A stretch of DNA of 64,000 nucleotides from Chiloscyllium plagiosum. Taxonomy: Eukaryota. The position numbers were made by a program, and so were the translations under genes. Position 1 is the first letter of the stretch. Every line of letters starts with the position of its first letter. Where the stretch lies: the NCBI RefSeq assembly GCF_004010195.1, contig NC_057719.1:29823100-29887099 (forward strand), given 5' to 3'. This document shows, piece after piece, positions 1-57,140 of the stretch. The notes beneath the pieces were generated by a model. That model made no database searches and was not told the origin of the DNA. It saw only the letters and a program-made list of their open reading frames with translations.

Positions 1-342
1 GAACACTTCAACCCCAGGGCATCAATGTGGACTTCAACAGTTTCCTCATTTCCCCTTCTCCCACCTCACCCTAGCTTCAAACTTCCAGTTCAGCACTGTC
101 CCCATGACTTATCCGGACTTGTCCTACCTGCTTATCTCCTTTTCCACCTATCCACTCCACCCTCTCCTCCCTGACCTATCACCTTCATCCCCTCCCCCAC
201 TCACCCATTGTACTCTATGCTATTTTCTCCCCACCCTCCTCTAGCTTATCTCTCCACACTTCAGGCTCACTGCCTTTATTCCTGATGAAGGGCTTTTGCC
301 CGAAACGTCGATTTTGAAGCTCCTTGGATGCTGCCTAAACTG
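1..342 (+). mobile_element. Penelope-like element family 1, 3' end (end of GIY-YIG ORF plus pLTR), truncated by window start
   Basis: Near-identical to 24991-25330. Encodes ...TLQPQGINVDFNSFLISP* and carries the CTGATGA...GAAAC motif. Confidence 0.85.
278..313 (+). ncRNA. Minimal type I hammerhead ribozyme motif (PLE family 1), intact core
   Basis: ATTC-CTGATGA-A-GGGC-TTTT-GCCC-GAAA-C-GTC-GATT: conserved core boxes, 4-bp stem II, GUC cleavage triplet, short stem I. Confidence 0.7.
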
Positions 343-384
343 AAGAAGGGTGGTGAGTTACCCAACAATGGGCTTGGTTACATT

Positions 385-1603: not shown

Positions 1604-3575
1604 CTCATACCCTATGTAGATAATACTGACTCTGACCAGTGGGAGTGGCTGACTGACCCTGTCCAAGGGCCTGGACTGTTTTCGAGTCTGTCTTTGACCT
1701 ACTGGCATCCATTGAACAAAGGCTATCTCCATTGACTGACAACCATGTCAAGTTTCCTGGCCTTTGTATCTGCACTAAATGGCAAGACAAGACAAGAGTA
1801 ATATGCGCCTGGTATCGCTGGCTGAGGGCCATGATGCAAAAAGACAAGGCAAGAATACTTTCACTAGGGTCAAAGTGAATGAGTACTACGACACTAAGAG
1901 AGGAGCCTGGTGATGCAGCTTGGTCCAGTCCATGACCTGGCTGTCTGTGTCCTTAAGTGCAAACTGACCTTGCATCAGCATAACCATGACAGTTGCCAGC
2001 ACAGCACTGAAGTGCAAAACATCCTTTGGTGGAACAGAGATGTACCATAAGTGTTCATAGGGCAGGCACATGTCAAAGGCCAATGTAGATTTGCGATGCA
2101 TGGAGCCAGTGCCCATGGAATATACCATGAGATGTTGATGCCCAGTGTCCAACATGGAAGTCCTTTAGAGAAAATGGCGAGGTACTCGCTCTGATTTTCA
2201 TTCCGAGTTTTCACATCTAGCTTGTCTGCTAAAACAGGAAGCTGAATATTAATCAGGCAAGTTGAGCTGTTAGAAAGGTGTTTGAAAAGCAATAAGCCTC
2301 CTCTAATTGGCAACTCACCACTACCGAGCAAGAAAATTGTCACTTGTCAAAAGCATAAATATGGGACAAGGTGTTCCCACCATCAAAATCAGCATCACCT
2401 GACTTCTGCCACAAATCTCAATGTAGTCCATATCACTTAGAGTCCTGTAAGATTCAATCCTTAATGTTAGATGAAATTTAAGCTTGATGAATACTTAGAA
2501 TGAGGTTGAGTTTATCACCTGTTTTCAAAGCATTGTTTGCCTGTCATTGCTTTTTCCACAGGTCTTCCTTTTTGTCCCAATTTCAAAAAGATTGGAGCAA
2601 AAAGTATGTGCATCGACCAAAAATATCCAATTAAGATTATAAGAGGGATCACTGTTATGTCTTTATATTACAAAATGAACATCTACTGTAAGATACTAGG
2701 ACTACTTGATGCAATGAGTACTACTATGTCTTGGCAACTCTAAAGCAGGAACCTAACTTGTAACAATTCTTCCTAGGAATTTGATATGTGGAAAATTGTC
2801 TATTATGCACTTTATAGTACTGAAAAAGTAGTTTTGTGATTGTAAAATAGCTTTTAACCTTGCCAAGAATTTGTTTCAAGATTTTCTTAAGTATTAAAAG
2901 TTACAGGTAGCAGACTTACAGCTAGAGCATATAAACTGTTGCCATCAAAACATTACTGCAATTCTTTTCAAAGTATTGGAATTTCTGAGACTTTGAAGCA
3001 GTACTCCAAATTATTTGTTGAAGTTGTTCAAGTTCTTTCAAATCACTCCATCTACTAAAAAAATCCAGAGTTAAGGTTTTAGAAGGCACTGCATACAGGG
3101 ACCATGCACTGTTGTTTATTTCTTGTATTTTGCCAGAAGGGAAATAATTTGAGGAATTTAAAAAAATTACAGTAGTGTTGTACCATTGTCTCTCGCCTAC
3201 GCATTAGACTTTCTGGCACCAATCAGAAAAAATTGTTTGAAATAGCTTTCATTTCTATTAAGCATTTTGTATAATGGTCTTTCTTTTGAGGGTAGTAAAT
3301 GGCAAGCTTCTAACTTTAGCAAATCTTTACATTTTGTGTTTAATTTCTTCAATTTCTTAAATGGAATATACTGGCATTATGCTACTGTTTTTTTATGCAG
3401 GTACACGTAATTGTCCATACTTAATGATTTACTGCATTAAGCTTGATCAATAAAGTTTTTCATTTTTCAAAATTTATTTTTTGAAGATGTCTGAAATAAT
3501 ATTTTTATCTACTTTTCTATTCTTATCAAGATTTAGTGTATTTGATCTCATTATAAAGATTATCATTTATCTGAT

Positions 3576-3985
3576 TAAAAGTCACACAACACCAGGCTAT
3601 GTTCCAACAGGTTTATTTGGAACACAAGCTTTTGGACCGCTGCTCCTTCATCAGGTGGTTGCGGAGTATAAGATTGTCGGACATAGAATTTATAGCAAAT
3701 GTTTACAGTGTGATGTAACTGTAATTGTATATTGAAAAAGACCTGGATTATTTGTGAAATCTCTCATCTTTTCAAATGAACATGTTGGTTTCATTTCTTT
3801 CATATGTAAAATTACAGACTTTTCTTAAAGTTACATTCTCAAGTGAACTTATACTCCTCAACCACCTGATGAAGGAGCAGCGCTCCGAAAACTAGTGCTT
3901 CCAAATAAATCTGTTGGACAAAACCTGATGTTGTGTGACTTTTAACTTTGTACATCCCAGTCCAACACTGACACCTCCAAATCAT
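3576..3985. mobile_element. PLE family 2 fold-back insertion (inverted pLTR pair)
   Basis: Left arm is the reverse complement of the family 3' region; right arm is in + orientation with tail ...acacctccaaatcat. Imperfect flanking duplication atcatttatctgat (3562-3575) / atcattgatttgat (3981-3994). Confidence 0.75.
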
Positions 3986-4544
3986 TGATTTGATGCATCT
4001 ACCTTTTACTCTTTTTGATTTAGATAGCCATCAATATAAATTGTATTCTAAATATCATCTCAATATGAGTACAGTCCTTGCCAATAAGGAGCTTCTCTGT
4101 TCTGAAGTGCTTCAGTATTTGAACTAGAAAAGCTTTAGGGAGGGGAGGTCTTCATCAACCCCTTTCAGGATTAGAGCTAATTTATGTGACTGGTTTAGTG
4201 GTTTTTTTTGTTTAGCAAACGTAATCTACCTGTTCACTTCATAGTCCGTAAAACAGTAGCATTCACATTTTGTTCCCTTCCCCTGTATAATTTTGCAGAC
4301 CTCTTGGATTTTCTTTCTAAGAATTACATTATAAATCTTGATGTCAGTGTTCTCGGATTGGGCGTGTACTCCAAATAAACTACTTCAAGGTTTTCCTGTA
4401 TATAATCAAAATTATTTGTTGAAGTTGTTCATGTGCACATGAAAAATTAGAAGACCTCTGAAGGCAAACGGTATTGGTCCTCTTTGTTACACTTTCTACT
4501 AAGGTGTGCAGGGAGGGAACACTAACATAGACAAAGGGAGCTAT

Positions 4545-5110: not shown

Positions 5111-5333
5111 ATGGCGAGCAATCCTTTCGTTCAGCCGTTTGCAAAGGGACAGTGGGGCGAGGGCGAGGAGTTTGAGCAGACAGATCGTGGTGTAGGTGTC
5201 AGTCCGCAGGCGGGGGCGGCTTTTGGTGGAGGGGATGCAGTTGCAGCAGCCGAGAGCTGGCGAGCTGGGTTGGAGCAGCCCCTCATACCAGACTCCAGGG
5301 GACAGCCTGTTACCAAGGCAACTGCATCCGCAG
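5111..5333 (+). CDS. Probable first coding exon of an unidentified host gene (MASNPFVQPF...ATASA, phase 1)
   Basis: Strong Kozak context atcATGG, 74 open codons in GC/CpG-rich non-repeat sequence, consensus donor CAG|GTAAGG at 5333/5334. No homologue recognised. Confidence 0.6.
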
Positions 5334-6018: not shown

Positions 6019-6044
6019 AAATTAGTATAAAATTAGTTGTTCTT

Positions 6045-6960: not shown

Positions 6961-7034
6961 GTTGCTGGGTCAAAATCCTGGAATTCTCTCTCCAAGGACA
7001 TTGTGGGACCACCTACTGAGGATGCTCAAGAAGG

Positions 7035-7163
7035 CAGGACAGAAGTGGGTACTACAGATGTTGGAGGTCAGAGTCAAGATTAGAGTGGTGCTGGAGAAGC
7101 ACAGCAAATCAGGCAGCATCCGAGGAGCAGGAAAATCGACATTTTGGGCAAAAGCCCTTCATC
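7035..7163 (-). mobile_element. Short PLE family 1 insertion inside a LINE family B 3' tail
   Basis: Reverse complement of the pLTR. TSD atgctcaagaagg (7022-7034) / atactcaagaagg (7164-7176). Confidence 0.75.
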
Positions 7164-8044
7164 ATACTCAAGAAGGTACCTCACTACAACCTTCTCAAGG
7201 GCAACTCAGGACAGGCAATAAATGTTGGCCAGCCAGTGATGCCCACGTCCCAAGAGTGAATTGAAAAAATTGAAATTGAAATGCACTGGTTATTGGAGCT
7301 TGGTTAATTGAAATTAATTGTTGCTTTGAAAATGACATTTCGGGTCCGTAGGACTTTTGAGTAAATATGCAATGTAGGCTGTTTATAAAGTTAAAGAATC
7401 ACTTCATTTAGTGGGGAAGTCCTTTGTTGTTAGTTAGTTGAGGGAAAAAATGATGAATATTTCAAGTGTCAGATGAATCCCACATTGCAATCTTGAATGC
7501 AGACATTTAAAATATTCATTGCTCACAAAATGCCATTTTCTGTTTATTGATTGTATGGCTCAGTAGGGAAACAACTTGAAGTTGGCACTAAATGTGTATG
7601 CTTCAGCATTTTGAAGTAAGTGCATTTTATAATTTAGTAAACCACAGTCAATGTAGTTTCAGAAGAAAGTGATCATGTCACATTGCTTTATTTTGAGGAA
7701 CTGGAATTTTGAGGTTAATTTTCCAAATCTAGTTTGGAAAGCCCGAAAATGTAATGACCCTTGACTTCTAAAAGGAATATGACACAATTGCAAGCACAAT
7801 CTATTTTTGAAGTTTAAAATTTAGAGCAAATCCTGCAAATAATTTTTTAAAATTAAAGCATAGAAAGCAGTAATTTGCTCATTAGAGTAAGTGGTAGTCG
7901 CTAAGGATTATTGCAACCCTATTATTTGAAATGCAAGTTAAGGTTTATATTCAGAATATTGGAGCGCATTAATCAAACCACTTTAGAAGAGCCAGCAGAG
8001 AAGGCAGTTCAGGCTAATATTAATCAAAATATGCAAGTGATTGG

Positions 8045-8390: not shown

Positions 8391-10156
8391 ATTAAAATAT
8401 GTGGTTTAATGCATACAAGCGCAAGGAACTGTGGTTAAAAACAAACTGCTGGAAATACTCAGCAGGTCTAACAGCATCTGTGAAGAGAGAGAAACTTACC
8501 GGGGTAATTTAAGATTTGAGTGGAATATGACCCTCCTTCAGAATTTGCATACAGTTTTCTTTTTCAGTTTACATTGAACATGACTCGAGCAGCAAATGAA
8601 GATTTTCAAGCTCTGCTTACCGTAGCCAAACTGATAGTGGTATGGTAAATTATTTCCAGTCAAAACCTAAGGACAGCACAAAAAAATGTTTAGAGATATC
8701 CCACAGAGTTGATCCCTTGGGCTATTTCAGCCTTTAAAGGATATTTTGCAGAGATCTATTAATAGAGTAATTGTACACTAAACACGGAGCTAAATACTAC
8801 TTTATATTAAACTATGATATTAGAAGAAGCAGACATCTCTTAAACTGAGAAACATAAAACTCACTGACAATAATTGCAATGTATTAAAAACTTTCACATA
8901 AGATTAGTAGAGGCAACAATCAGGTATTGTTTGAGGAAATGTTGAGTGTTATAATGTTGGACCTTATGATTTTTCAAAAAGGATGTTCTCAGACTGGACA
9001 AATGATCTTTCTCGGCAATATCTGCTTCTAAGCAAAACTGTTTTTTTTTGTAATGTTTGTCATAGAGCAAATCAATGTAGTTTGAGGTTTTGTCCTTAAT
9101 CATGGATCAACTGACATTGTCTAATTCATTCTGTACATTCTTTGCTCTTTGGTCCATCATTTATCCTTTCAAGTCAAAACAAAAAAAATTCTTACTTGAA
9201 TGGGAGAGTGTTGTATGTTTCTTTGGGAGATACCCTGGAATTTATTCTGGTATGCTGACCCATTATGAGTAGTATAACTGATTATCCAAACAATTTTAAA
9301 ATGAATCTTCCTTGCTGTTTCTCAAAAACACTTAACTTGGTTTTTAGTTCCTATAATAATTATTTGTGCAGAGTGTTTTGGTTACAGTGGGCATTAACAT
9401 GTATGTCATTTTTTGTATTGATAGTACTGCACAATAACTAAGGCTGTTCAGTCTTTCATAAATGACTAAACACAATTAAAACAAAAGTGTTGAGATACTT
9501 GTTACCCTGCTACTCATTGATTCATTATGAAGTCTCATGAAAGGACATAGATTTGCATTTGGATACATCTGACATTCTGTCTTTGAAACATAATTCCTGG
9601 TGAATTTGAACATTGAATTATGCTGTGTTACCTTTCAGAAGCTGCAATGCTCAATGTAGATCAAGATGCTTATGTTAGATCTTTAGTGTAGATAAAACCT
9701 AGTTATAAGTATTTCTACATTATATTTAATGAAGATAAATAATATACTTGCTGCTAAGTGAGTTTAGAAACACAGCATTTCTCACCTAATGAACAGGAAT
9801 TGCTGTAAGAATTGTTGGGAAAGGAGTGAATTTGAACTACTTTGAACTCAATCAAGCATCCTTTAAAACTTTACTGGTACATTAGGAAATCTGGAACGTA
9901 ATGTGATACTTTTTTTGATGCTTCACTCATTTCCTACCTTGTATAGTAAACCAAAATCTGGGCTTATTGGGGGTTGTGCAATATGAAGGAGTGTAAAGCA
10001 GTGAACTTACTCAATGTTATGGATCCTTCACAATTGCTGCAGGTGTAATAATAAATGGTTTGTGGTTTGTAGCAATAACTTTCACTTATTTAGTGTCTTT
10101 AATGAAGTAAAGTACCCCCAATGCATTTTGATGAAATTTAGTTCGGCATATTTAGT

Positions 10157-10463: not shown

Positions 10464-10768
10464 AATAAATAAAAAATAAAATATACTAAGTCAAAAAATG
10501 TATTTGGAGGGCTTATCAAAACTTGGTGAAACGTTGCTTTTAAGAAAGGTCTTAAAGCAGCAGAGTACTTTGAGAAATAGACTGGTTTAGGTTTGAGAGT
10601 TCAATCCAAAATGTAGATGGCTAAGGGTAGAGTGTAAGCTAGGGTTAGTGATCACAACATGGTAACATTTCATATTCAGTTTGAGAGACAACAACTTCAG
10701 TCTCAAACAGTGTCCATAATTTAAATAAAGGGTAATTACAGACCTATGAAAAAACATTGTCAAAAGTG

Positions 10769-10942
10769 TACAATGTTAAAAATCACACAATACCAGGTTA
10801 TAGTCCAACAGGTTTAATTGGAAGCACTAGCTTTCAGAGCGCCACTCCTTCATCAGATGGTTGTGGAGGACTACAACCTGGTGTTGTGTGATTTTTTTTT
10901 TTAACTTTGTACACCCCAGTCCAACACCGGCATCTCCAAATC
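10769..10942. mobile_element. PLE family 2 short fold-back insertion
   Basis: Inverted terminal arms; exact 12-bp TSD ttgtcaaaagtg at 10757-10768 and 10943-10954. Confidence 0.8.
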
Positions 10943-11177
10943 TTGTCAAAAGTGAGCTGGGAAAATAGATTAAGGGGAAGGAAGGCAAGTAGATGAACAA
11001 TGACAGATATTGATCAGGTATTTCCTAACACCTCAGGAAGTTCTATTTCTGATCAAAAGAAGGACTTCATGAGAAGGATGAAACCTATTGTTAACAAAGT
11101 TGATCAAGGAAGAAATCGAATCCAAAAACTAAGGCATAAAAACAGCAACAAACCAGCTAGAATTAATTCAACATAAA

Positions 11178-12350: not shown

Positions 12351-13106
12351 TGATGTCAGCTGATGTCATTACTGAACAAATCAGATCGCAGAAAAATATC
12401 TGACCTGATAGATGTATAAAAATCTATAGTTTATCTGGTGGTCATTTATTGAAAAATAGTGACCTGAGACTGCAGAGTTCCTTACATATCAGAACAGAAA
12501 TTAATTTCACAAAATACAAAAAATGAAAAATAAACTTAGAAATAGAACATCACGTTAAAAAAATCTTTAAACACCTTGCAAATCAAAATTTTAATCCATT
12601 CACCAACTTTGTCACTTTAAAATTGTCACTGTCATTTCAAATTCAGAAAAAAACGTTCTGTATCAGATCATGCAGCTGATTATCCTCTGTTCTTTTTTGT
12701 GAACTGTGAAGTCATCTTGCATGAATATTCACAAAACTGAGAGCTTAGATTTTCTAAACTTTTAATGACCTGAAGATCTCTAACCAAACATTCCTGGTCT
12801 GGAAGCTGCACAAAATAAACTTTTCTACTGAGGTAATAATGTACTCCATAAACTGAACTGGTCTACACACCTTTTATAGGACTGAAACTATATTTGCTTC
12901 TGACCTTGGTCAGGTCTTCTTTGAAATGCCTCAAAACATTTTTAATCTTTGGGTTTTCTAAGCTGAAATCAGTCCATGATTATCCTGAACCAAAAACAAG
13001 CTAATATCCCTCAAACTTTACCTCACTGTCCTAAACCATCACAATAAAAGTCTTCCATTAATATTCCGAGAGCTCCCTGTACTCTGACACATGTACTGGA
13101 TTAAGT

Positions 13107-13287
13107 TAAAAATCACACAACACCAGGTTATAGTCCAACAGGTTTAATTGGAAGCACACTAGCTTTTGGAGCGCCGCTCCTTCGTCAGACGGTGCTCCGA
13201 AAGCTAGAGTGCTTCCAATTAAACCTGTTGTTGTGTGATTTTTAGCTTTGTACACCCCAGTCCAACATCGGCATCTCCAAATCATGA
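13107..13287. mobile_element. PLE family 2 short fold-back insertion
   Basis: Inverted arms joined at the ribozyme motif; exact 14-bp TSD gtactggattaagt at 13093-13106 and 13288-13301. Confidence 0.8.
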
Positions 13288-13312
13288 GTACTGGATTAAG
13301 TCATTGTTCATC

Positions 13313-18696: not shown

Positions 18697-18819
18697 GAGG
18701 AGAAAGTCTGCAGATGCTGGAGATCAGAGCTGAAAATGTGTTGCTGGAACAGCGCAGCAGGTCAGGCAGCATCCAGGGAACAGGAGAATCGACGTTTCGG
18801 GCATAAGCCCTTCTTCAGG
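18697..18819 (-). mobile_element. Short PLE family 1 insertion within CR1 ORF2
   Basis: Exact 14-bp TSD attgtcataatttc at 18683-18696 and 18820-18833. Confidence 0.85.
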
Positions 18820-18822
18820 ATT
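18787..18822 (-). ncRNA. Minimal hammerhead motif (PLE family 1), intact core
   Basis: Minus strand reads AATC-CTGAAGA-A-GGGC-TTAT-GCCC-GAAA-C-GTC-GATT. Confidence 0.7.
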
Positions 18823-20907
18823 GTCATAATTTCCTTTTCCCCAATTCAATATCTTTCCATGGTAACTGCTCCTTTCCCTCTCCACGACTGTGGTAAATGT
18901 GAGGCAGTTATGATTACTGTCACCAAAGTGTTCTCCCACTGCGTGATCTGACACCTCTCCTGGCTCATTGCCAAGCACAAAATCCAAAATGGGCTTTCCC
19001 CTCGTTGGCCTGTCTACATACTGCGTAAGGAGACCCTCCTGAACACGCCTGGCAAAAACTGCTCCACCCAAACCATCTGCGCGAAGGAGGTTCCAGTCAA
19101 TATTGGGAAAGTTGAAGTCACCCCTAACAGCAACCCTGCAAAATCTGCTGGCCTACAAGTTCTTAGATCTCCCTACGGCTATTAGGGGTCTGTAGAAAAC
19201 CCCTGATGAGATGGCTGCCTCATTGCTGTTCCTAACTTCCACCGGTACTGACTCAGTAGAAAAATCTTCCTTGACAGCCTTCATTTCTGTAGCTGTGATG
19301 CACTCTAAATCCTGGAACATCTAGCAATCGTTCCTGCCCCTGTGAAACCCATGTCTCTGTTATGGCCACAACATCATAGTCCCAAGTACAGATCCATGCT
19401 CTAAGTTCATCACTCTTTTATGTCTGAAACTCCTTGCGTTAAAGCAGACACATTTTAACCGATCCCTTTGCTTCATCACTTGAAAAACCTTCCCAATACA
19501 TTCACTACATCCTGTCACTGCCCCGTCGACAACTACACCCTCCCGCATACGTGTAGTTCGGTTTCCCACCCCCTGCCAAACTAGTTTAAACCCTCCCAAA
19601 CCACACGAGCAAATCTCCCACCCAGGACATTTGTGCCTTCCAGTTCAGGTGCAACCCGTCCTTCATGTACAGATCCCACCTTCCCCAGAAGGCATCCCAG
19701 TGGTCTAAGTATCTGGAGCGCTCCCTCCTACACCAGCCTCGTGTTAAGCTGCCTTCGCTGACTGTTCCTCACCCCACTATCATGTGGCACTGGTAGCAAA
19801 CCTGAGATCACTACTCTACTCATCTTGCTCTTCAGCTTCCAACCTAGCTGTCTGTAGTCACGTTTCAGATCCACAATCCCTTTCCTGTCTATATCATTGG
19901 TGCCAAAATGTACCATGATTTCTGGCTGCTCACCCTCCCCCTTCAGAATGCTGTAAACCTGATTGGCAGTATCCCGGACCCTGGCACCGGGGAGGCAACA
20001 TGCCTTCCGGGAGTCCCGTTCCTAACCACAAATTCTCCTGTCAATTCGTCTAACTATTGAGTCCCCTACTACTAGCGCTTTTCTATTCTCCCCACTTCCT
20101 TTCTGAGCAACAGTGCCAGAGACCTGACAACTATGGCTTTCCCCAGTAGTATCCAAAATGGTATACTTATTGCTGAGGGGAACAGCCACAGAGGATCCCT
20201 GTTCTGTCTGCCGGTTCCCTTTCCTCCCCTTGACTGTAACCCAGCTGGCCTAATCGTGTGTCTGAGGGGTGACCACCTCTCTGTACATCCTCTCAATTTC
20301 CCCCTCAGCCTCCCAGATGATCTCCAGTTTGTCTAGCTCAACTCCAGTTCCCTAACTTGGTTTTCAGGGAGCTGGAATTGGGTGCACTTGCCACAGATGT
20401 AGCCAGTGGAGACATGTGCACATTCTGCAGGAGGAACATGCAACTGCCCTATTAGCCATAGCCCGATAATCTGAAAGCACACACAGGACTAAACAAGGAA
20501 GAGAAGGAAAGAAATAGAAATGAAAACCTGTAAACTTACCAAGTTTACAGACTCGTAAGTTAGAGGAGGTGTGTGGGAGGGAGGTCCTGCGATGTAGGGT
20601 TCAGGTTTAGATCTCACCCACTTAAACTTCCTGGCAGCCCTCGCTTCTCTCCGCCCTCTCTCCTCGCCGCTCTGTTCAAAATGGAGGCCCAACTCCCAAG
20701 GTAAGTCCCTTTCCAAGTGGGAAAAGCTGACCCACCTAGCAGCCCTCGCTTCTGTCTACCCTCTCTCCTCGTAGCTCTGTTCTGCTATTCTTCCGTTCCA
20801 ATCCCTTAATATGAACTATCAACCTCTTTTCTCCACCAGTACTCTACCCATACAGCCTTCCCACCCCTAAGCATAGCATAAATGCTGTCCCCTCCACACT
20901 TTATTTC

Positions 20908-20946
20908 AGCTCTGATGAAGAGTCATTTAGATTCGAAATGTTAGCT
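20908..20946 (+). ncRNA. Minimal hammerhead motif (PLE family 3)
   Basis: AGCT-CTGATGA-A-GAGTC-attta-GATTC-GAAA-T-GTT-AGCT; 4-bp stem I, 5-bp stem II with one G-U pair. Confidence 0.6.
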
Positions 20947-22029
20947 TGCTCTGTCTTGCCATGGATGTTGTCTGACCCGCTGTGATCTTCAGCATTTGTT
21001 GATTTCGATACAGGTTGGTAAGTTGATTTCATGCATTTGAGAATAGAAGTAAGCCAGTGCAGATGCTATATGAACAGAAAGGCCATAACCGGATAGTTCT
21101 GCAAACATCATAACTAAATAAAATAAGTTTTCCACAATGATTTTTAATATAGAAATGGTTTTACAGGGGCTTGACAGTCATACACAATGTAACTATTTTC
21201 TGGCACAGGATGAATTGCTCATCATTTTAATGTTCATCAAGTTGAACAATTTTAAAATCAGAGTGTGGAGAATAGATTTCCAGACCAAAGAGAATATTGA
21301 AAAGTTTGTTATAGCCGAACCCAGGAATTATTGGAGGAATCAATGAGAAAAATGAGCTTGAAATTCAGTTTGATTTGGATTGAAAAAATAGTGACTATAG
21401 AATCTTTACCTAACCATTTATTAGGGTGAAAAATGTAGGTTTTTATATGGAAATAAATCTTTAAGGGGTACAGTATGTAATGTGCTAACAAAAATTAAGA
21501 TGTGTGCACATTTATAATACATAAATCTAAAGGGGGGGGGCAATCAAGCTTATGAAGAAGAATTAATATGAAGCAGTAAAATTAATTATGCACTAAACAT
21601 TGTCTGAAAGTGAATAAACCAAGTGATTAACTTGCTGGACTTGTAAACACTGTAGGTATGACTAAAATTAATAATTCTGGTGTGCTGTGAGATTACAAAC
21701 TGTAAACAGGCATCATTGTAGAACCGAAAGAAGTGGGGCTTGATTTTAAATAGCCCTTTTGCAAGGTGGCATTGTTTTTAAACCTAAACAAAAATAGAAG
21801 TTGCTAGAAAAGTTCAGCAGGTCTGGCAGCATCTGTGGAGAGCAATCAAAGTTAATGTTTTGGGTCTCGTGACCCTTCCTCTGTTCTGATTCATAATATC
21901 TGCTGTTCTTTCGGTTTTTGGTTTGATACTCGTAAGGTAAGCAAATATTAGATCAAGTGAAAATAGCTTTTATAAATAAATCTGTGGGACAGAGAGGGGA
22001 AATGACTCGACTGAAGTATTGAGGCTGCT

Positions 22030-22969: not shown

Positions 22970-25392
22970 ATGTCCCCCCCACTGACACCATCTCTGCCCC
23001 CCCCCAAGAACCCTGAGGGGAACACCATCCCTGCTCATGACTCCACCCCCATTCCCCCACCACCACACCCACTCCAGTTACCGGCTCCGCCCCCATTCTC
23101 AGCTCCACACCCATACTAGATCCCAGCTCCCAGCTCTGCCGAGTTTTCACCATCCCTCCAGACCTCCCCCTCACTGAGGACGAACAATCAGTCCTCAGCA
23201 AAGGACTCACCTTCATCCCCCTCTGCCCACGCATCAGTGAATTTAATACACGCCGTGATGTTGAACACTTCTTCCACCGCCTCCGCCTCCGAGCTTACTT
23301 TCACAATCAGAACTCCCGTCCACCTTCCGAGGACCCCTTCGCCCGCCTCCAACGCACCTGGACACCCCGTGCTGGCCCGCCCTCGAACTCTTCATTTCCA
23401 ACTGCGGCTGGGACATTAACCGCCTCAATCTGTCTACCCGCTCCCCCACTCCAACCTCTCACCCTCTCAACACGCAGCCCTCCACTCCATCTGCTCCAAT
23501 CCCAACCTCACCATCAAGCCAGAAGATAAAGGGGGTGCAGTGGTAGTCTGGTGCACTGACCTCTACACCGCTGAAGCCAAACGCCAACTCGAGGACATCT
23601 CTTCCTACCGCCCCCTCGACCATGACCCCACACCCCATCACCAAACCATCATCTGCCAGACCATACAGAACCTCATCACCTCAGGAGATCTCCATCCACA
23701 GCTTCCAACCTCATAGTCCGGGAACCCCGCACTGCCCGGTTTTACCTCCTTCCCAAGATCCACAAGCCAGACCACCCTGGCCGACCCATTGCTCCTGCTC
23801 CACTGAACTCATTTCTACCTACCTCGACACTGTCCTATCCCCCCTAGTCCAGGAACTCCCCACATACGTTTGAGACACCACCCACGCCCTCCACCTCCTC
23901 CAAGACTTCCGTTTCCCAGGCCCTCAATGCCTCATCTTCACCATGGGATATCCAATCCCTCTACACCTCTGTCCGCCATGACCAGGTCCTCCAATCCCTC
24001 CATTTCTTCCTCTCCCGACGTCCCAAACAGTACCTTCCACCGACACTCAGTCATTTGGCCTTAACAATTTCTCCTTCGAATCCTCCCACTTCCTCCAGAC
24101 CAAAGGTAGCCATCGGCACCCGTATGGGCCCCAGCTATGCCTGTCTCTTTGTTGGCTATGTAGAGCAGTCCATCTTCCGTAATTATATCAGCACCACTCC
24201 CCACCTCTTCCTCCGCTACATTGATGACTGCATTGACGCCACCTCATGCTCCCGCGAGGAGGTCGAGCAATTCAACAACTTCACCTGCATATTCCACCCT
24301 GACCTTAAATTCACCTGGACCATCTCTGACACCTCCCTTCCCTTCCAGGACCTCTCCATCTCCATTAATGATGACAGACTTGACACCAACATCTTTTATA
24401 AACCCAGTGACTCCCACAGCTACCTGGATTACACCTCTTCCCACCTTACCTCCTGCAAAAATAATGTCCCATATTCCCAATTCTTCCGCCTCCGCCACCC
24501 TACCAACCTTCAAATTAACGATATCATCCATCAACATGTCCACCACCTCCAAACAGACCCCACCACCAGGGATATATTTCCCTCCTCACCCCTTTCCACC
24601 TTCCGCAAAGACCGTTCGCTCCTGGCACCTTCCCCTGCCACCGCAGGAATTGCAAAACCTGTGCCCACACCACTTCCCTCACCTCCATCCACAGCCCTAA
24701 AGGAGCCTTCCACATGCATCAAAGTTTCACTTGCGCATCCACCAATATCACTTATCCTATCCGTTGCTCCCGATGTGGTCTCCTCTACATTGGGGAGACT
24801 GGACGCCTCCTAGCAGAGCGCTTTAGGGAACATCTCTGGGACACCCACACCAATCAACCACACCGCCCTGTGGCCCAACATTTCAACTCCTCCTCCCGCT
24901 CTGCCAAGGACATGGAGGTCCTGGGCCTCCTTCACCGCCGCGCTCTCACCACCCGACGCCTGAAGGAAGAACGCCTCATCTTCCGCCTCGGAACACTTCA
25001 ACCCCAGGGCATCAATGTGGACTTCAACAGTTTCCTCATTTCCCCTTCCCCCACCTCACCCTAGTTCCAAACTTCCAGCTCAGCACTGTCCCCATGACTT
25101 GTCCTACCTGCCTATCTTCTTTTCCACCTATCCACTCCACCCTCCTCCCTGACCTATCACCTTCATCTCCTCCCCCACTCACCTATTGTACTCTATGCTA
25201 CTTTCTCCCCACTCCCACCCTCCTCTCATTTATCTCTCCACCCTTCAGGCACTCTGCCTGTATTCCTGATGAAGGGCTTTTGCCCGAAACCTCGATTTTA
25301 CTGCTCCTCGGGTGCTGCCTGAACTGCTGTGCTCTTCCAGCACCACTAATCCAGAAACTGGTTTCCAGCATCTACAGTCATTGTTTTTACCC
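22970..25392 (+). mobile_element. Penelope-like element family 1, long copy: decayed RT plus GIY-YIG endonuclease and pLTR
   Basis: VLSKGLTF, IKPEDKGGAVVV, FYLLPKIHK, GTRMGPSYACLF, LRYIDD, CSRCGLLYIGETGR, ERFREH, GTLQPQGIN; frameshifts and internal deletions; hammerhead-like motif at 25262-25297. Confidence 0.92.
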
Positions 25393-27470: not shown

Positions 27471-27484
27471 TAAATCTGTGATTT

Positions 27485-27781
27485 TACACAAGGTTTGTAG
27501 CTCAAGTTGTAGATCAGGTTGTAAGTTTGCTCATGGAGTTGGTAGGTTTGTTCTCAGACGCTTTGTCACCATGCTAGATAACATCATCTGTGAGCCTCCG
27601 ATGAAGCGCTAGTTTTCTGTCCTGCTATTTATGTGTTTTGGTTTGTTGTGGTGGTTGATACCACTTCTGGGATTCTTTTCTCAGAGGTTGGTAAATGGGG
27701 TCTAAATCAATGTGTTTGTTACTGGAGTTCTGGTTTGAAGGCCAGGCCAACAAAGACACACACGGGAATTCCTAGAGGCCT
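27485..27781 (-). mobile_element. PLE family 4 3' fragment with short inverted 5' piece and degenerate hammerhead
   Basis: Pieces encode QRHTREFLEA (+, 27749-27781) and NSSNKHIDLDPIY (-). Minus-strand ctca-cAGATGA-tgttatc...ggtgac-aaagcGTC-tgag at 27553-27594. Confidence 0.6.
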
Positions 27782-32550: not shown

Positions 32551-33415
32551 TGCTGCAATTTCCCCCCAGACGTGATCGACAATGCTCTCTACCGCATCTC
32601 CTCTACTTCCCGCTCCTCTGCCCTTGAGCCCCGCCCCTCCAATTGCCACCAGGACAGGACCCCGCTGGTCCTCACCTACCACCCCACCAACCTCCATATA
32701 TATCATATCATCCGTCGTCATTTCCGCCATCTCCAAACGGACCCCACCACCAGGGATATATTTCCCTCCCCTCCCCTNNNNNNNNNNNNNNNNNNNNNNN
32801 NNNNNNNNNNNNNNNNNNNNNNNNNNNNNNNNNNNNNNNNNNNNNNNNNNNNNNNNNNNNNNNNNNNNNNNNNNNNNNNNNNNNNNNNNNNNNNNNNNNN
32901 NNNNNNNNNNNNNNNNNNNNNNNNNNNNNNNNNNNNNNNNNNNNNNNNNNNNNNNNNNNNNNNNNNNNNNNNNNNNNNNNNNNNNNNNNNNNNNNNNNNN
33001 NNNNNNNNNNNNNNNNNNNNNNNNNNNNNNNNNNNNNNNNNNNNNNNNNNNNNNNNNNNNNNNNNNNNNNNNNNNNNNNNNNNNNNNNNNNNNNNNNNNN
33101 NNNNNNNNNNNNNNNNNNNNNNNNNNNNNNNNNNNNNNNNNNNNNNNNNNNNNNNNNNNNNNNNNNNNNNNNNNNNNNNNNNNNNNNNNNNNNNNNNNNN
33201 NNNNNNNNNNNNNNNGCATTTCCAACGCCCCTCCCCCAAGTCCCTCCTCCCTACCTTTTATCTTAGCCTGCTTGGCACCCTTTCCTCATTCCTGAAGAAG
33301 GGCTCATACCCGAAACATCGATTCTCCTGCTCCTTGGATGCTGCCTGACCTGTGCTTTTTCAGCAACACATTTTCAGCTTTGATCTCCAGGATCTGCAGT
33401 ACTCACTTTCTCCTA
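32551..33415 (+). mobile_element. PLE family 1-related 3' fragment spanning an assembly gap
   Basis: PLVLTYHPTNLHIYHIIRRHFRHLQTDPTTRDIFP; terminal motif cctgaagaagggctcatacccgaaacatcgatt at 33288-33323. Confidence 0.8.
32778..33215. other. Assembly gap (N run)
   Basis: Run of n characters. Confidence 1.
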
Positions 33416-38945: not shown

Positions 38946-41900
38946 AAAGTTTTCGATTTTTATTTTACTTATGTTCACTGCTTGACTAAAATAATCAGCA
39001 AATTATTTGGTTTCTAGGTAATATGTTCACAAATAGACAAAGACATTTTCAGATTATAGATGAGTGCCTGGACACAGAATTTCAGCTAGACTGCGTGTAT
39101 CTTTTCCTGTAACTTATAAATAGCTAGCACTGATAAATTGCTGCACTAGAAAAAGGGAGCAAGCTTCATGATTATCATATACCTATTTTAAATGAATCAT
39201 TTGTGATTTACAGTGTGAAGTATCTAATGATTTCCTTTGACACATAACCCTTACTCTCTTCCTGTAATGAGAATCATCTATTTTACATATTTTTGACATT
39301 TTTAATTGTAATGTTAATGTCTTCTATTTTGTCAATAGCATCGCTAACATACTAAAACTTACGCTTGTGGCTAATTTGACTGCAGACATCAGGTTGGAAC
39401 ACTATTAAGTTAGGCTGAACAATATTAAATCCAGTTAACATTTATTTAATCTCTCAAAGATCTGTTGCTTGACTGAGGTTCAAGAGCTCCCATTGGACTG
39501 GCTACTGTAGAATATCAGAGAAAAACGTTGTAGCAGCTGCAGAAAGATACCACATGAGAATTTCTGGTGTATTTTGCAATGAATCAGTGATCAAATTTAG
39601 AATTGTAAATTTGGAGTGCCAACTAAGTATATGCATCTTCCGAATGTAATAATTTACAGATTCTAGTAACCCATATATATGTTGCAATTTAAAATATTTA
39701 TGGGAACTTCAGAGAAGGACAGGCATTTGATTTGTTATTGGATTCCTGTCCATTTGTGTACTCTGTGTATGTGATGAGACAATTGTACGTTTACTTACTC
39801 TGTGCAGAAGACTTGGAGAACATGCATTATATTTCATTCAGTTTGATTTCCTAGTGAAGCAAAAGGTACTGAAGAGCATATTAACCGCTCAAACTGTTGG
39901 CTCCTCCCAATCATACCTGATCTAATGAAGCTCAGTGAAAACTCAAGAAATTGCACCATCTCTTCAAAATACTGAACTGTAACTTTCTGGACTGAACATT
40001 GAATTCACCAATTTCATGTTGTAACCAATGGTCTATTATTGCCATTGTCATGATGGGTGCATATTTACTACTTTTTTGTGTGCTTGAGCCTGCAGGACTT
40101 TGGAACCATCTGGACTTTTATAAGAGGTTAATGAAAAAATATAGTCGAACTTTTTAAAACTAGGTTTTTCTTCGAAATTGCATAGTTTCAGATAATTACT
40201 GGTTTTAGTTGCTTGAACTGCCTTCATGGAAAGCACCTGACTGTGTTTTTACAACTGGATTTTATTTCTGTTCTGTTGGAACAGTGTTTTGCAGGCTTAA
40301 AGATAGCTTTTGATTTTCAGTTGGGAAAATCCTGCTAAAGAATACGCTACTCTGCTGGTGGCATTTTTCTGGTGAATCCAGTGTGAAACCTGACCTGACC
40401 ATTCTCTTGAAGAGCGATGGTATTTCCTGAATGAACAGCATCTGCCAGGATCTCAGGCAACTGTCTATACACATGCCAAAGTGTTAGACCGACTACTAAC
40501 TGGACATCTCCGATCTTATCAAGTTTACCTTCAAAGCACTTATTGACCAAGATTACCCCCCCAACCCCCTTGAAGTGACTGACTGCAGCGAAAAATCTGC
40601 TTCCCCCCCTTTACTCTGCATTTGTTCTTGTGAATGTTTTGAGTTATTTAGAAAACGTTTATATTCTTCAGATTACAAGCTGTGTTAACAGATGTTGCAC
40701 CTTCATTGAATAAATTTTATTTATCATAACTCAATAATTTTGAGTTAATTAAAGAAACCTGAAGGGATCTTTTTATTTTAAGTCTGATATAGAGAAGACA
40801 TCTGATTGACCATATTGGAAACCCAAGTAAAGAAATTAAATTTAGTTGTGTTTCCTCTGAATGCCATCTGTTTCATGCAAAGAGCAGAAAGAAAACAAAA
40901 TTCTCAAGTGATGGGAAGCAGCTGTTTGTCTAAAGATGGAACAAACACAGAATGCTAGCAAACTCAACAGGTCTGGCAGTATCTGTGGAGAGAGAAACCG
41001 AGTTAACATTTTGAGTCCAGTATGACTCTTCTGAACACATCTAAAGAGTGACACTGCCTGGATGTGATATGAAGTAGCACAGTGAATAAAATAAATCTGT
41101 TTTGTTTTCTCACAGCAGCCTCCTCCATTCTCCTACTCCTTCTGTAGACTCTGCCTCACCTCCCCAATTCTTTGAGTGCCATATGCTCTGATGACATCAC
41201 TACGCATGCATGTCATCAGCAATGTTTGCATGTGTGGTGGCCATATTGCATCATGCATGATCACTTTGTCAAATTTATGCTATGGCCCATGAACTGGTGG
41301 AACTGGAGAAAACAGAGCAATTTATCCGTCTTGGTCATAAAATCATTTGCACCTTTTTGTTTTGTTTTGTTTGTCTTTCCCTATCCCATCAGAACCCCTT
41401 TTTCTTACATCATATCCTCCTGATCTTTAATCTCTCCAGCCTTCCACTTTAATGCAGTTCTTCCCTTTTTGTTCTTCCCCAGCTCTCTATTTTCCTTATC
41501 TTTGTGTTTTCTTGAAGCAAGGAACATGAACGTTTTCTCCATTTCATGAGAAATATTAACTTTGGATGGAGAGTAACGCTTTCCCCTGAAGTATGTTTGG
41601 AAGCAGATGGCATTCAATTGATGACAAGGTGGGGACCTCCTCACCTTCCATCTCCACCTGATTAAGTCTTGGATAGTTAATACCCACCTAAAGGACTCAC
41701 TATGCCACCACTGGTACTCAGTCAGTAGGATAGTCAACACACAGGAATACTGGAAAACAAACTTTTGTTGCTGACCATCCCCTCCCCCACCTTGCAATCC
41801 ACATCCCATCCTTGGGGTACTTTGGCCATCCTATGCCTCTCCCCGGGTGCATTGCTGGCAGTTGCCATTGTTCCTGCTGGTATTGCCTGTAATGGACATG

Positions 41901-47310: not shown

Positions 47311-49302
47311 TTTGTACCTATTAGTAGTCATTTATATCAATTCTTGTTATGTGTTAAGTTGTCAAAGTCAGTATAATATCAGGGTTTCACTGCACACTCC
47401 TTGAATTTTACGTACTTAACACTTTTAAATGATGTCAGCTTACAATTTAAAACATCTTCTCCTGTCATTGTGATGCATCTGTGGCTTTTCCTCATATTGT
47501 CAAAAATCCAGATCATAGTTTCCAAATCAAAATGATCTTCTAAGCTGTAAACCTAAGTGTAAAATGTTCTACTTTTCTCACACGTAGAATGTCTATATCA
47601 TAACAGCTCTCCTTAGAGTATATTCTGACATTGGGGCTCCTATAATCAGGTCATTTTTCTTTCAAGTTAGACTGTCTGTTACAAAATTGAATGAGTGAAT
47701 AATAACTTGACCTGACTAAAATTGAGCAATGTGACAAAGTTTTTCTAATACAGCATTGCACTCATTGTTTATTTGCAGTCAGCTAAAAGTAATTTTTACT
47801 TGGTTAATATCAGTAGATATTGCACATCTGAAAACATAGCTTAACAAATACTCAAGGCATCGTGGAATTTAAGGTTACTTTTTACATTTTTTAAAATTCA
47901 TTCATTTGTGGGATGTTGGCATTGTTTGTTGGCCAGCATTTTATTGTCCATCCCTAATTGGCCTTGAGAAGGTGGTGGTGAATTGACGTCTTGAACTGTT
48001 GCAATCCATCTGCTGTGGGTTGGCCACAAAGCCACTGGGGAGAGAATTCCAGGATTATGGCCGAGCGACAGTGAAGGAACGGTGGTTATATTTCCAAGTC
48101 AGGATGGTGAGTGGCTTGGATGGGAACTTGAAAGTGGTGGTGTTCCTGTATATATTGACTGCCCTTGTCCTTCTAAATGGAAGTGGTCGTGGGTTTAGAA
48201 GATACTGTCAGAGGATCTTTGGTGAATTTTTTCAGAGCATCTTGTAGATAGTACACGCTGCTGCTACTGAGCGTCGGTGGAGGAGGGAGTGGATGTAATG
48301 TCAAACAAACGGGCTGCTTTGTACTGGATGGTATCAAGCTTCTTGAGTGTTGTTGGGGCTGCACTCACCCAGGCATGTGGGGAATATTCCATCACACTCC
48401 TGACTTGTGCCTTGCAGGTGGTGGACAGGCTTTGATGAATCAGGAAGCGAGTTACTCGTTGCAGTATTTCGAGCTTCTGACCTGCTCTTATAGCCACTAT
48501 GTTTATCTGGTGAGTACAGTTGCGTTTCTGGTCAACGAAATCCTCAAGGTGTTGGTTGTGAGGGATTCACTGATGGTAATAGCATTGAATGCCAAGCGGT
48601 GGTAATTTGATTGTCTTTTATTCATGATGGTCATAGCCTGGTATTTGTGTAGCACGAATGTTATTTGCCACTTCTCAGTCCAAGCCTGGATATTGTCCAG
48701 ATCTTGTTGCATTTGAATATGGACTGCTTCAGTATCTGAGGAGTCATCAACATTGTGCGATCATTGACAAACGTCCCCTTCTGACCTTATGATGGAGGGA
48801 AGGTCATTGATGAAGCAGCTGAAGATGGTTTATCCTAAGACACTACCCTGAACAGCAACTGGAGCTGAGATGACTGACTTCCAACAACTATGACCATCTC
48901 CCTTCGTTTCAGGTATGACTCCAACCACCAGAGAGTTTGTCCCCGATGGTCATTGATTCCAATTTTACTAGAACTCCTTGATGCCACACTTGGTCAAATG
49001 CTTCCTTGATGTCATGGGTTGTGACTCTCCCTTATCTCTGGAATTGAGCTCTTTTGTCCATGTTTGGACCAAGGCTGTAATGAAGTCCAGAGCTGAGTGG
49101 CCCGAGCGGGACCCAAACTGGGCATCGTTGAGCAGGTTATTGCTCAGCAGGTGCTGCTTGATAGCACTGTTGATGACAAATTCCTTCACTTTATTGATGA
49201 TTAAGAGTAGACTGATGGGGTGGTAATTGACCAGGTTGGATTTGTCTGGCTTTTTATGTACAAGACATACTTTGGTAATTTTCCACATAGATACTAGTGT
49301 TG

Positions 49303-49393
49303 AGATTAGAGTGGTGTTGGAAAAGCACAGCAGGTCAGACAGCATCCGAGGAGCAGGAAAGTAGACTTTTCGGACAAAAGCTCTTCTTCGGGA
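49303..49393 (-). mobile_element. Short PLE family 1 insertion in LINE family B
   Basis: TSD atactagtgttg (49291-49302) / ataccagtgttg (49394-49405). Confidence 0.75.
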
Positions 49394-49418
49394 ATACCAG
49401 TGTTGTAACTGTACTGAA

Positions 49419-54440: not shown

Positions 54441-55099
54441 GTTGTGCAATGGTGGTCACCTGTAGTGTGACATGAACCGAAGGTCCCGGTTGAGGCCCTC
54501 CCTATGGGTACGGAACTTAGCTATCAGCCTCTGCTCTGCTAAGTTCCATACCCATAGGGAGGGCCTCAACCGGGACTTTGGGTTCATGTCACACTACAGG
54601 TGACCACCATTGCACTACACAGACACACACAGACTTAGACACTCTACACTCACATACACACACATATACACTCTCTTTCACACTCACAACTCCCCACCAC
54701 AGACAGACAGACAAACACACATGCCCACATATATATTTGTGGGGTGAATTTGTACTTGCAGAGTTACATTGTACTTTGCTCAAAATCTGCGTGAATCCAT
54801 GTAAGACTCTGTTAACTCACTTTTTAGATTAGAATCAGTCTAAACATTATGGCATAGACAACAGTACACAGGTGGCTAACACCTTTAACATATTATCTGA
54901 CTGACACCAATTGTTACAGTTAACTTTAACTTTTTAAAAAGTTTTATGATTTACATATGAAAGAAGTGAAACTATCTTGGTATTCTAACAGATGAAAGAT
55001 TCACAGACAATCAAGGTATTTTTCAATGTGTAATTCAGTTACATCACACTGTAAACTTTTGCTATAAATTCTGTGTCCTAGAATTGTGTCCTCCACAAC

Positions 55100-55134
55100 C
55101 ACCTGATGAAGGAGCGGTGCTCCGAAAGCTAGTG
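55100..55134 (+). ncRNA. Minimal hammerhead motif (PLE family 2), intact core
   Basis: CAC-CTGATGA-A-GGAGC-GGT-GCTCC-GAAA-G-CTA-GTG. Confidence 0.7.
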
Positions 55135-55626
55135 CTTCCAATTAAAGCTGTTGGACTATAACCTGGTGTTGTGCGATTTTTAACTTTGTACACCCCAGTT
55201 CCACATTGGCATCTCCAAATCATTTATTTTTTAGGGCTCACAGAATGCAGGACAGCATACAGAAATCACGTGTGGGAGTAAACTTGGCATTTTTCTGCAG
55301 CCCTTCAGAATTTGGGCCAACCTCAGAGAAGCTGCATATCTATTTTGCGCCTAAGGTCCTCCTGACCTGTGAGAAACCCACAATAAAAAGACAGAGGATA
55401 ATTGTATTTCCAGCAAAACAAAAATTACGTTCAGTGTATTGCATGCTGATTTGCACCTCATTTGGAGAATGAAATCAGACTCAAAGTATTTGTTATGAAC
55501 CATGCGGCAAATTTCATGTCTTATTTTTATTTTTGTGCTTTTTAAAATGGTGGACTGAAATGAGAAAGAACTGTTTTAAAATCAACATGGCAAGCATCAT
55601 TGAAATACCTACTTGAAAAAGAAGTA

Positions 55627-57047: not shown

Positions 57048-57140
57048 AATGAAGAGCTTATGCTTGAAACATCAACTCTCTTGCTCCTCAGATGCTGCCT
57101 AATCAACTGTGCTTTTCCAGCACCCCACGTTTTGACTCTG
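57048..57140 (+). mobile_element. Degenerate PLE family 1 terminal fragment
   Basis: atgaagagcttatgcttgaaacatc...gatgctgcct...gcttttccagcac. Confidence 0.6.

What the first reader, a model, noticed from the sequence alone, without database searches (positions are those of the whole stretch)
278..313. Minimal hammerhead ribozymes with covarying stems across four Penelope-like families
Seen in sequence: the same architecture, stem I-CUGANGA-N-stem II-GAAA-N-NUH-stem I', recurs in families with otherwise dissimilar flanks. Family 1 (278-313; 18787-18822 minus) has stem II GGGC/GCCC and triplet GUC. Family 2 (55100-55134) has GGAGC/GCUCC, CUA and stem I CAC/GUG. Family 3 (20908-20946) has GAGUC/GAUUC, GUU and stem I AGCU/AGCU. 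Family 4 (27553-27594 minus, core mutated) has GUUAUC/GGUGAC, GUC and stem I CUCA/UGAG. Stem sequences change while pairing and core are kept, and all have one extra nucleotide after CUGANGA. Established: PLE pLTRs are known to carry minimal type I hammerheads. Inference: these are the shark versions, and more than a dozen intact or decayed copies lie in this window.
Basis: partly seen in the sequence, partly recalled or inferred. Interest (0 to 1): 0.8.

Follow-up and report, generated by a model that had tools for sequence, protein, structure and literature searches.

The report
Penelope retroelement stubs with minimal hammerheads
These motifs are real copies of the tiny hammerhead RNA motif (predicted to self-cut) already known from Penelope-like jumping genes, here mostly broken leftovers, and the fixed point at which many copies begin suggests they were likely copied from the uncut front end of the element's RNA.

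Summary
All five motifs are at the stated coordinates and far exceed chance. They are the minimal type I hammerheads of Penelope-like element (PLE) pLTRs described by Cervera and De la Peña 2014. All four families lie downstream of PLE GIY-YIG endonuclease sequence: three Neptune/Nematis-type, one Poseidon-type. The window holds 23 pLTR fragments, 9 with an intact core. The genome holds at least 38,476 exact family-1 motifs. Covariation holds between families, not within them. The usual family-1 stem I has a U·U mismatch. Catalysis and the shark label were not tested.

Extra clue: 43 of 120 young family-1 copies begin within 6 nt of the first base of stem I; only 1 begins at the cut site. Copies end at two tail sites. 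This fits internal priming on an uncut, probably capped RNA that starts at the hammerhead. A modest excess of starts at the cut site is inconclusive. Family-2 RNA in one public run, possibly from a related species, is polyadenylated about 30 nt past the cut site.

The scan noted this before on other DNA (285 notes, at least 27 genomes), including the start-point clue. Known kind.

The parts
128..345 (+). Family-1 (subfamily A) 3' pLTR; continues upstream into the endonuclease C-terminus at the window start; intact hammerhead 278-313, C3=282, H17=C309
388..472 (+). Family-1 stub starting at the first base of stem I; decayed core (3 mismatches)
3575..3810 (-). Family-2 pLTR, 1 core mismatch; head-to-head partner of 3852-3991
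3852..3991 (+). Family-2 stub with long tail; core intact (C3=3866), stem III palindrome broken
7051..7164 (-). Family-1 stub starting inside the core, decayed
8424..8542 (-). Old family-3-like stub, decayed
10766..10951 (.). Family-2 inverted pair: minus copy with intact core (C3=10856) joined to a plus tail-only fragment
13097..13291 (.). Family-2 inverted pair joined inside the hammerhead
18704..18822 (-). Family-1 (subfamily B) stub starting at the first base of stem I; intact hammerhead 18787-18822, H17=18791
20772..21023 (+). Family-3 pLTR; intact hammerhead 20908-20946, C3=20912, H17=U20942
21801..21889 (-). Stub of a further family-3-related family (stem II GGGUC/GACCC), decayed
23041..25064 (+). 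5'-truncated, frameshifted PLE ORF: RT remnant (Pfam RVT_1, E 0.0025, below cut-off; YIDD motif), CX4CxxC linker, GIY-YIG endonuclease (PF01541, E 6e-4, below cut-off)
25065..25391 (+). 3' UTR and pLTR of that element: hammerhead 25262-25297 (core intact, G16.2 changed), tail to about 25391
27475..27744 (-). Family-4 (Poseidon-type) pLTR; hammerhead 27553-27594 with 3 core mismatches
33235..33401 (+). Family-1 (subfamily B) pLTR; core intact (C3=33292), stems II and III decayed
40943..41044 (-). Old family-3-like stub, decayed
49289..49397 (-). Family-1 stub starting 2 nt before stem I, 1 core mismatch
53855..54091 (-). Family-2 pLTR, 1 core mismatch; points away from the copy at 54951
54951..55226 (+). 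Family-2 pLTR; intact hammerhead 55100-55134 (H17=A55131), poly(A) hexamer at 55141-55146, tail to about 55223
57049..57146 (+). Family-1 stub, decayed
61925..62109 (.). Family-1 inverted pair: minus copy with intact core (C3=62005), plus copy starting in stem II; source of the sub-threshold Rfam miRNA-like hairpin hits

Best explanation
The motifs are minimal type I hammerheads in the pseudo-LTRs of several Penelope-like retroelement families, present mostly as dead, truncated copies, and they likely mark the very front of the element's RNA, from which short stubs were likely copied while the RNA was still uncut. SHOWN: motif anatomy; linkage to PLE RT and GIY-YIG sequence; 3' ends clustered at two tail sites about 50-65 and 85-98 nt past the predicted cut site; 5' ends piled at the first bases of stem I; about half of the family-1 copies in head-to-head pairs; the tail continuing into the ORF; neutral decay after insertion. 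INFERRED: an upstream pLTR starts transcription at or next to the first base of stem I (an initiator-like YYAUUCC in family 1). The element's RT primes at a target nick, internally, at one of the two tail sites, as shown in vitro for the anole Poseidon element. It runs off the 5' end of the RNA after 85-130 nt and leaves a stub. Fold-back or two-strand priming gives the inverted pairs. FROM KNOWN CHEMISTRY, UNTESTED HERE: stem III has no loop, so a single copy cannot form it. Cutting after H17 needs a second copy pairing through the palindrome, or help from the element's protein. Cutting would be occasional and not needed for insertion. It would remove the first 31 nt or so of the RNA, and in family 4 also the first codons of the ORF, so it would act as an off-switch or processing step. 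Confidence: identity 0.93; uncut front-end template 0.6; real cleavage in cells 0.5.
For: Identity; published consensus in PMC4209133. In 1.35 Mb of sampled genome, 80 of 81 strict hits have the extra nucleotide, 65 of 81 have G10.1-C11.1, and all 5 shuffles gave 0 hits. 5' ends: 43 of 120 young family-1 copies start at -31..-26 relative to H17, against 12 in -124..-50, 24 in -49..-32, 28 in -25..-1 and 1 at +1 (binomial P 1e-11 or smaller against each neighbouring interval). Family 2 shows the same shape, 19 of 57 at -37..-26. Genome-wide, 3,918 and 2,006 exact motifs have G or A before the -31 base, and 59 of 60 inspected had flank or an inverted partner upstream. G is in excess at this boundary but not at the -30 boundary (1,068 G, 2,388 T; odds ratio 4.4), as copying of a cap would give. 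3' ends and tail: matching PMC11167929. The tail runs into the ORF in L274 (family 1) and in L118 and L139 (family 4); in L139 the frame is open from stem II onward. In run X21, family-2 reads cross the cut site with no pile-up of ends.
Against: No activity data. The extra G is not shown to be untemplated. In the 9 non-inverted G-loci with a credible target-site duplication (two are duplicates of one insertion), the target also had G at that place; 2 doubtful cases did not. A target preference therefore remains possible. The pile-up is spread over -31..-26 and not on one base. Family 4 shows no pile-up (1 of 26 at -34..-26). The family-3 pile-up (15 of 41) rests on old copies whose upstream sequence may be missing from my reference pool. 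The loose ends at 25262 are confounded by a subfamily with different upstream sequence. No 5'-end RNA data exist among the runs listed. In D. virilis the start site lies 46 nt upstream of an intron that ends at helix I, so the layout is not universal. ViennaRNA's dimer folds did not give the dimeric hammerhead for any of the five copies, and the 278-313 monomer folds into a competing stem.
Confidence: 0.72

Rival explanations
1. The identity is the same, but the 5' pile-up is a by-product of integration chemistry: microhomology with an AT(T) or GAT target end, or RT release once the cDNA hairpin of stem I closes. It says nothing about where the RNA starts.
For: The anole PLE endonuclease cuts at 5'-ATT-3', and both -31 and +2 begin with ATT. 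Target copies often read GA or GAT after the duplication. Several inverted junctions join the complement of the 5' strand of stem I to +1 (L328, L339).
Against: The profile is a step: 7.2 ends per nt at -31..-26 and 0.16 per nt at -124..-50. The +2 ATT site collects only about 500 truncated copies (6 of 20 of 1,715) against about 5,800 at -31, although with different patterns. The G excess is absent at -30. Family 2 piles up at a boundary with no ATT.
Confidence: 0.22
2. The hammerhead cuts routinely in cells, and cut (or cut and circularised) RNA is a normal template, as proposed in 2014.
For: Copies starting exactly at +1 are estimated at about 1,230 (11 of 20 inspected among 2,231 matches; 95% interval 703-1,717). 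That compares with about 270 at -2 (4 of 20 among 1,366; 78-596) and about 510 at +2 (6 of 20 among 1,715; 204-931). The core and stems are kept across families.
Against: Counting only junctions with unique flank, the intervals overlap (669, 137 and 343). Some +1 junctions are stem-I fold-backs. Starts at -31 are about five times commoner. 3' ends lie 50-98 nt beyond the cut site, so the downstream copy was uncut. No pile-up of RNA ends was seen at the cut site in X21, a poly(A) library with little power for this. Hammerhead mutants of the anole element still insert in vitro.
Confidence: 0.2
3. The 85-130 nt stubs are an independent SINE-like or retrozyme-like non-autonomous family with its own amplification cycle.
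For: They have fixed 5' ends, target-site duplications and very high copy number. Retrozymes are reported to derive from PLE pLTRs (bioRxiv 10.64898/2026.07.22.740005, passages).
Against: The stubs match the pLTR subfamilies of ORF-bearing copies, end at the same two tail sites and grade continuously into longer copies. They are dispersed or head-to-head, not head-to-tail arrays of canonical hammerheads.
Confidence: 0.07
4. Chance matches to a short motif.
For: Rfam gives no hammerhead hit, and the motif is short.
Against: 0 strict hits in 200 window shuffles and in 5 shuffles of the 1.35 Mb sample. The motif sits at a fixed place in four homology-defined PLE families.
Confidence: 0.01

Closest known systems
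Minimal hammerheads (min-HHR) in pLTRs of metazoan PLEs (Cervera and De la Peña 2014, PMC4209133; read parts 1-2 of 4 of the text and part 2 of 3 of the supplement)
   Same: Type I layout, core, extra nucleotide between 9 and 10.1, G10.1-C11.1, palindromic 15.2-16.2, short stem I, several families per genome, mostly single truncated copies, opposite-strand pairs.
   Different: No cartilaginous-fish row appears in the part of the alignment I read, and 'shark', 'Callorhinchus', 'Chiloscyllium' and 'Leucoraja' were absent from the 2 supplement files searched (one file could not be searched). Copy number here is far higher: at least 38,476 exact family-1 motifs against 4,000-9,000 reported for coelacanth and Xenopus. 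The main family-1 stem I has a U·U mismatch.
Poseidon element of Anolis carolinensis, PAc (PMC11167929; read passages and the second half of the main text)
   Same: Two internal priming sites bracketing a 30-40 nt tail; ORF starting inside the hammerhead (family 4 here); uncut RNA as the main template.
   Different: PAc's hammerhead was shown to cut with protein help; nothing was assayed here. The passages I read do not describe 5' ends piling at stem I.
Neptune/Nematis and Penelope/Poseidon PLE clades (PMC8557442, passages)
   Same: C-terminal GIY-YIG; CX2-5CxxC linker in families 1 and 2 and in degraded form in 3; no linker in family 4; 5' truncation, inverted 5' copies, tails.
   Different: Clade assigned by the linker motif only; no RT tree was built.
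Animal non-LTR retrozymes (PMC7229834 and bioRxiv 10.64898/2026.07.22.740005, passages)
   Same: Type I hammerheads in short non-coding repeats related to PLE pLTRs.
   Different: Retrozymes are tandem arrays, typically with canonical hammerheads and circular RNAs. These copies are dispersed or head-to-head and minimal.

Membership tests
PLE min-HHR | CUGANGA...GAAA...UH core in type I order | tested here: met
   Majority core complete in all four families; intact in 26, 25, 18 and 12 of 30 copies
PLE min-HHR | One extra nucleotide between A9 and 10.1 | tested here: met
   80 of 81 strict hits
PLE min-HHR | G10.1-C11.1 pair | tested here: met
   4 of 4 family majorities; 65 of 81 hits
PLE min-HHR | Palindromic 15.2-16.2 with no loop 3 | tested here: met
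   C-G in families 1, 3, 4 and G-C in family 2
PLE min-HHR | Covarying stems I and II across families | tested here: met
PLE min-HHR | Located in the pLTR of a PLE | tested here: met
PLE min-HHR | Site-specific self-cleavage as dimer or with protein help | not testable with these tools
   The genomic +1 excess is inconclusive, and ViennaRNA cofolds are not a test of catalysis
EN+ Penelope-like elements | RT followed by C-terminal GIY-YIG with two Cys inside the core | tested here: met
   the Pfam scores of the broken window copy are below the curated cut-offs; 85 homologues at E up to 1e-10, many with PF01541
EN+ Penelope-like elements | 30-40 nt optional tail, 5' truncation, inverted 5' copies | tested here: met
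   Two 3'-end clusters; inverted partner in 64 of 140 family-1 and 23 of 35 family-2 copies
EN+ Penelope-like elements | RT groups with PLE RTs in a phylogeny | not tested
   No reference PLE set was at hand
Neptune/Nematis clade | CX2-5CxxC linker before the endonuclease | tested here: met
   Families 1 and 2 clear, family 3 degraded; absent in family 4, which fits Penelope/Poseidon
Canonical hammerheads (Rfam models) | Match to an Rfam hammerhead model; stable stem III | tested here: not met
   No hammerhead among 13 hits at E up to 10
Non-LTR retrozymes | Head-to-tail tandem array of hammerhead-bearing units | tested here: not met
   The 23 window fragments are dispersed or head-to-head; arrays elsewhere in the genome were not searched

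The most novel reading that the evidence does not exclude
In these PLEs the hammerhead forms the very 5' end of the capped element RNA, with stem I overlapping the initiator. Internal priming in the adjacent tail makes a strong-stop-like cDNA, and its premature integration has filled the genome with about 10^5 hammerhead stubs. A smaller class of copies starts exactly at the cut site and records cleavage in the germline. The ribozyme would then be a decapping or off-switch at the head of the RNA, not a tool for cutting unit-length RNA from tandem transcripts. That would make the open question of what PLE hammerheads do directly testable.
Probability: 0.4. Interest if true: 0.6.

Novelty: new member of a known kind. 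Interest (0 to 1): 0.3.

Why it matters
The motif class and its link to PLEs are published, so the catch itself is ordinary. It adds a lineage not shown in the 2014 alignment part I read, with a very high copy number. The function of PLE hammerheads is still called unclear (PMC8557442, passage). Tens of thousands of young insertion junctions record where the template RNA began and ended, and they point to an uncut RNA starting at the hammerhead. Family-2 pLTRs also carry a used poly(A) site, at least in the one run examined, so inserted copies may terminate host transcripts.

Tried and rejected
Rfam scan: no hammerhead model hit; the miRNA-like hits at 61946-62055 come from an inverted stub pair. 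Within-family covariation: none beyond decay. The MAFFT alignment of nine representatives was out of structural register, so pairs were counted in a script anchored on the core. Those nine were hand-picked descriptor hits, so that count (73 of 81) is partly circular. The first end map was confounded by inverted partners and was redone with partners masked. One search left out 6 unanchored hits and those within 200 nt of a stretch end. One search kept only copies with at least 44 of 54 identities to the family majority, which left too few family-3 (4) and family-4 (2) copies. Loose ends at 25262 were rejected as independent support because of a subfamily difference upstream. No RNA holder was listed on record for the stretch; X22 laid no reads. 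ViennaRNA monomer and dimer folds were uninformative about the active fold. The homologue search named no host taxon useful for the shark question. Lünse et al. (RNA Biol, PMC5785218) could not be read; I saw only its title in a reference list and the summary in PMC6765202, so a cartilaginous-fish example there cannot be excluded. Paper searches that showed no report of cartilaginous-fish min-HHRs or of 5' ends at stem I. These were judged from listings and the passages cited, and Repbase and Dfam were not available. Supplements of PMC11167929 (Fig. S2, copy-end coverage) and of the bioRxiv preprint were not seen and may bear on the end-mapping claim.

Full report
OBSERVATION. The five quoted motifs are at the stated coordinates. 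A type I descriptor allowing one extra base found 4 strict and 7 loose hits in the window, against 0 strict hits in 200 Markov shuffles. Rfam has no matching hammerhead among 13 hits at E up to 10, as expected for a motif lacking stem III. Profiles built from 30 genomic copies per family found 23 pLTR fragments in the window. Nine have all 11 core positions intact, and six also keep stem II and the stem III pair.

COVARIATION. The majority sequences of the four families have a complete core, an extra base after A9, G10.1-C11.1 and a palindromic 15.1-16.1. Across them 34 of 36 stem cells pair, the shuffle mean is 19.3, and 0 of 20,000 shuffles reached the observed value. Within families there are almost no both-side changes (0, 0, 2, 1) and more broken pairs (8, 6, 17, 17). 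G12, which lies in a CpG, is kept in only 57-97% of copies, so the copies decay neutrally. The usual family-1 stem I has a U·U mismatch, while a smaller subfamily has a perfect stem.

WHAT THE ELEMENTS ARE. At 23041-25064 a frameshifted ORF carries an RT remnant and a GIY-YIG domain ending about 200 nt before the hammerhead at 25266. Both Pfam scores are below the curated cut-offs. tblastn with these peptides hit 29/30, 7/30, 22/30 and 11/30 loci of families 1-4, mostly upstream on the same strand. Families 1 and 2 have the CX4CxxC linker, family 3 has it in degraded form, and family 4 lacks it. By the definitions in PMC8557442 (passages) that means three Neptune/Nematis-type families and one Poseidon-type family; no tree was built. 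L274 holds a near full-length family-1 element in which the tail leads into the ORF. L118 and L139 show the family-4 tail leading into coding sequence, and in L139 the frame is open from stem II onward.

ABUNDANCE. In 140 stretches (1.35 Mb without N; 20 of them next to the window) there were 81 strict motifs, or 60 per Mb, and 426 pLTR fragments. Extrapolated to 3.56 Gb this is about 2x10^5 strict motifs (inference). Five exact patterns for family 1 sum to 38,476 genomic matches.

COPY ENDS. Positions are given relative to H17. 3' ends cluster at about +50..+65 and +85..+98. This is the tail signature that PMC11167929 ties to two internal priming sites. It means the template for these ends was uncut at the hammerhead. 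5' ends of young family-1 copies: 43 of 120 at -31..-26, 24 at -49..-32, 12 at -124..-50, 12 further upstream, 28 at -25..-1 and 1 at +1. Position -31 is the first base of stem I and lies in an initiator-like YYAUUCC (the initiator consensus is recalled, not from a call). Family 2 shows 19 of 57 at -37..-26. Family 3 shows 15 of 41 at -34..-26 but in old copies, and family 4 shows no pile-up (1 of 26). Genome-wide, 3,918 motifs have G and 2,006 have A before -31, and 59 of 60 inspected start there. At the -30 boundary G is rarer than T (1,068 against 2,388), giving an odds ratio of 4.4. A copied cap would produce this. Against that reading, the G was also present in the target in all 9 credible target-site duplications, so it is not shown to be untemplated. 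Starts exactly at +1 are estimated at 1,227 (703-1,717), against 273 (78-596) at -2 and 514 (204-931) at +2, each from the first 20 listed matches. With unique flanks only, the intervals overlap. This is a hint of cleavage in cells and no more. An inverted partner lies upstream of 64 of 140 family-1 copies.

RNA. No listed holder is on record as RNA. One poly(A) single-cell run from a possibly different species (X21, about 2% read, most reads under 95% alike) gave no pile-up of molecule ends in either family. For family 2, 563 and 803 reads continue with A-runs after 55158 and 55161, 12-15 nt past an AWUAAA hexamer at 55141-55146, and depth is level across the cut site. Family-2 pLTR RNA is therefore polyadenylated about 30 nt past the cut site, upstream of both priming sites. 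Such RNA could not template the tail of a 3' pLTR, which fits priming near the front of the RNA or on read-through RNA (inference). The reads may come from host transcripts ending in inserted copies.

MECHANISM. Most likely an upstream pLTR starts an RNA at the hammerhead. The RT primes internally in the tail and often runs off the front end, leaving 85-130 nt stubs, single or head-to-head. The ribozyme can form stem III only as a dimer or with protein help, cuts occasionally, and is not needed for insertion. Anatomy, linkage and end distributions are shown. Start site, cap and catalysis are inferred or taken from PMC4209133 (low dimer activity), PMC6765202 and PMC11167929 (protein-assisted cutting, mutants still insert). 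Rivals are microhomology or RT release as the cause of the pile-up, routine cleavage with circular templates, and an independent SINE-like family.

NOVELTY. The motif matches the 2014 min-HHR consensus point by point. I found no cartilaginous-fish example and no report of 5' ends at stem I in the searches and passages. The 'shark' is the simile for the ribozyme's shape. One key paper and several supplements were not seen. The host being a shark was not tested. The scan's own notes list 285 similar findings in at least 27 genomes, several with the same start-point and cut-site clues. I had those results before looking, and the notes are unchecked, so they are not independent support. Verdict: a real, new member of a known kind, interest 0.3.

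Noticed in passing
window 55141-55161 (+): The family-2 pLTR has a poly(A) hexamer 10 nt after the hammerhead cut site; 1,366 reads of run X21 carry A-runs after 55158 or 55161. One sample, possibly a related species.
   Followed up: partly
window 28248-28819 (-): Broken Tc5/pogo-type DNA transposon (DDE_1, E 3.5e-9; HTH_Tnp_Tc5, E 6.9e-6) just upstream of the family-4 pLTR.
   Followed up: no
window 48971-52551 (-) and 18727-19152 (-): LINE-type RT (RVT_1, E 4.7e-24) and endonuclease remnants; the stubs at 49289-49397 and 18704-18822 lie inside these remnant frames.
   Followed up: no
L139:-, rc position about 2577-3060; L118: The family-4 reading frame is open from hammerhead stem II through the tail into coding sequence, as described for the anole Poseidon element.
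   Followed up: partly
L128:4518-4560, L195:9724-9766 (-), L194:105-144 (-), L141:9032-9067, L122:3784-3819 (-): At least five further hammerhead families or subfamilies with different stems, one with an internal purine-purine mismatch in a 7-bp stem II.
   Followed up: partly
L328, L339, L239/L240, L253/L254: Inverted junctions formed through the hammerhead's own stem I, or through a palindrome at its first bases, suggest cDNA fold-back priming.
   Followed up: partly
L274:3522-7000 (+): Near full-length but frameshifted family-1 element with a long Pro/Ser/Thr-rich stretch before the RT.
   Followed up: no
window 20630-20780 (+): A roughly 120-nt spaced direct repeat of a pyrimidine-rich segment just upstream of the family-3 pLTR.
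   Followed up: no
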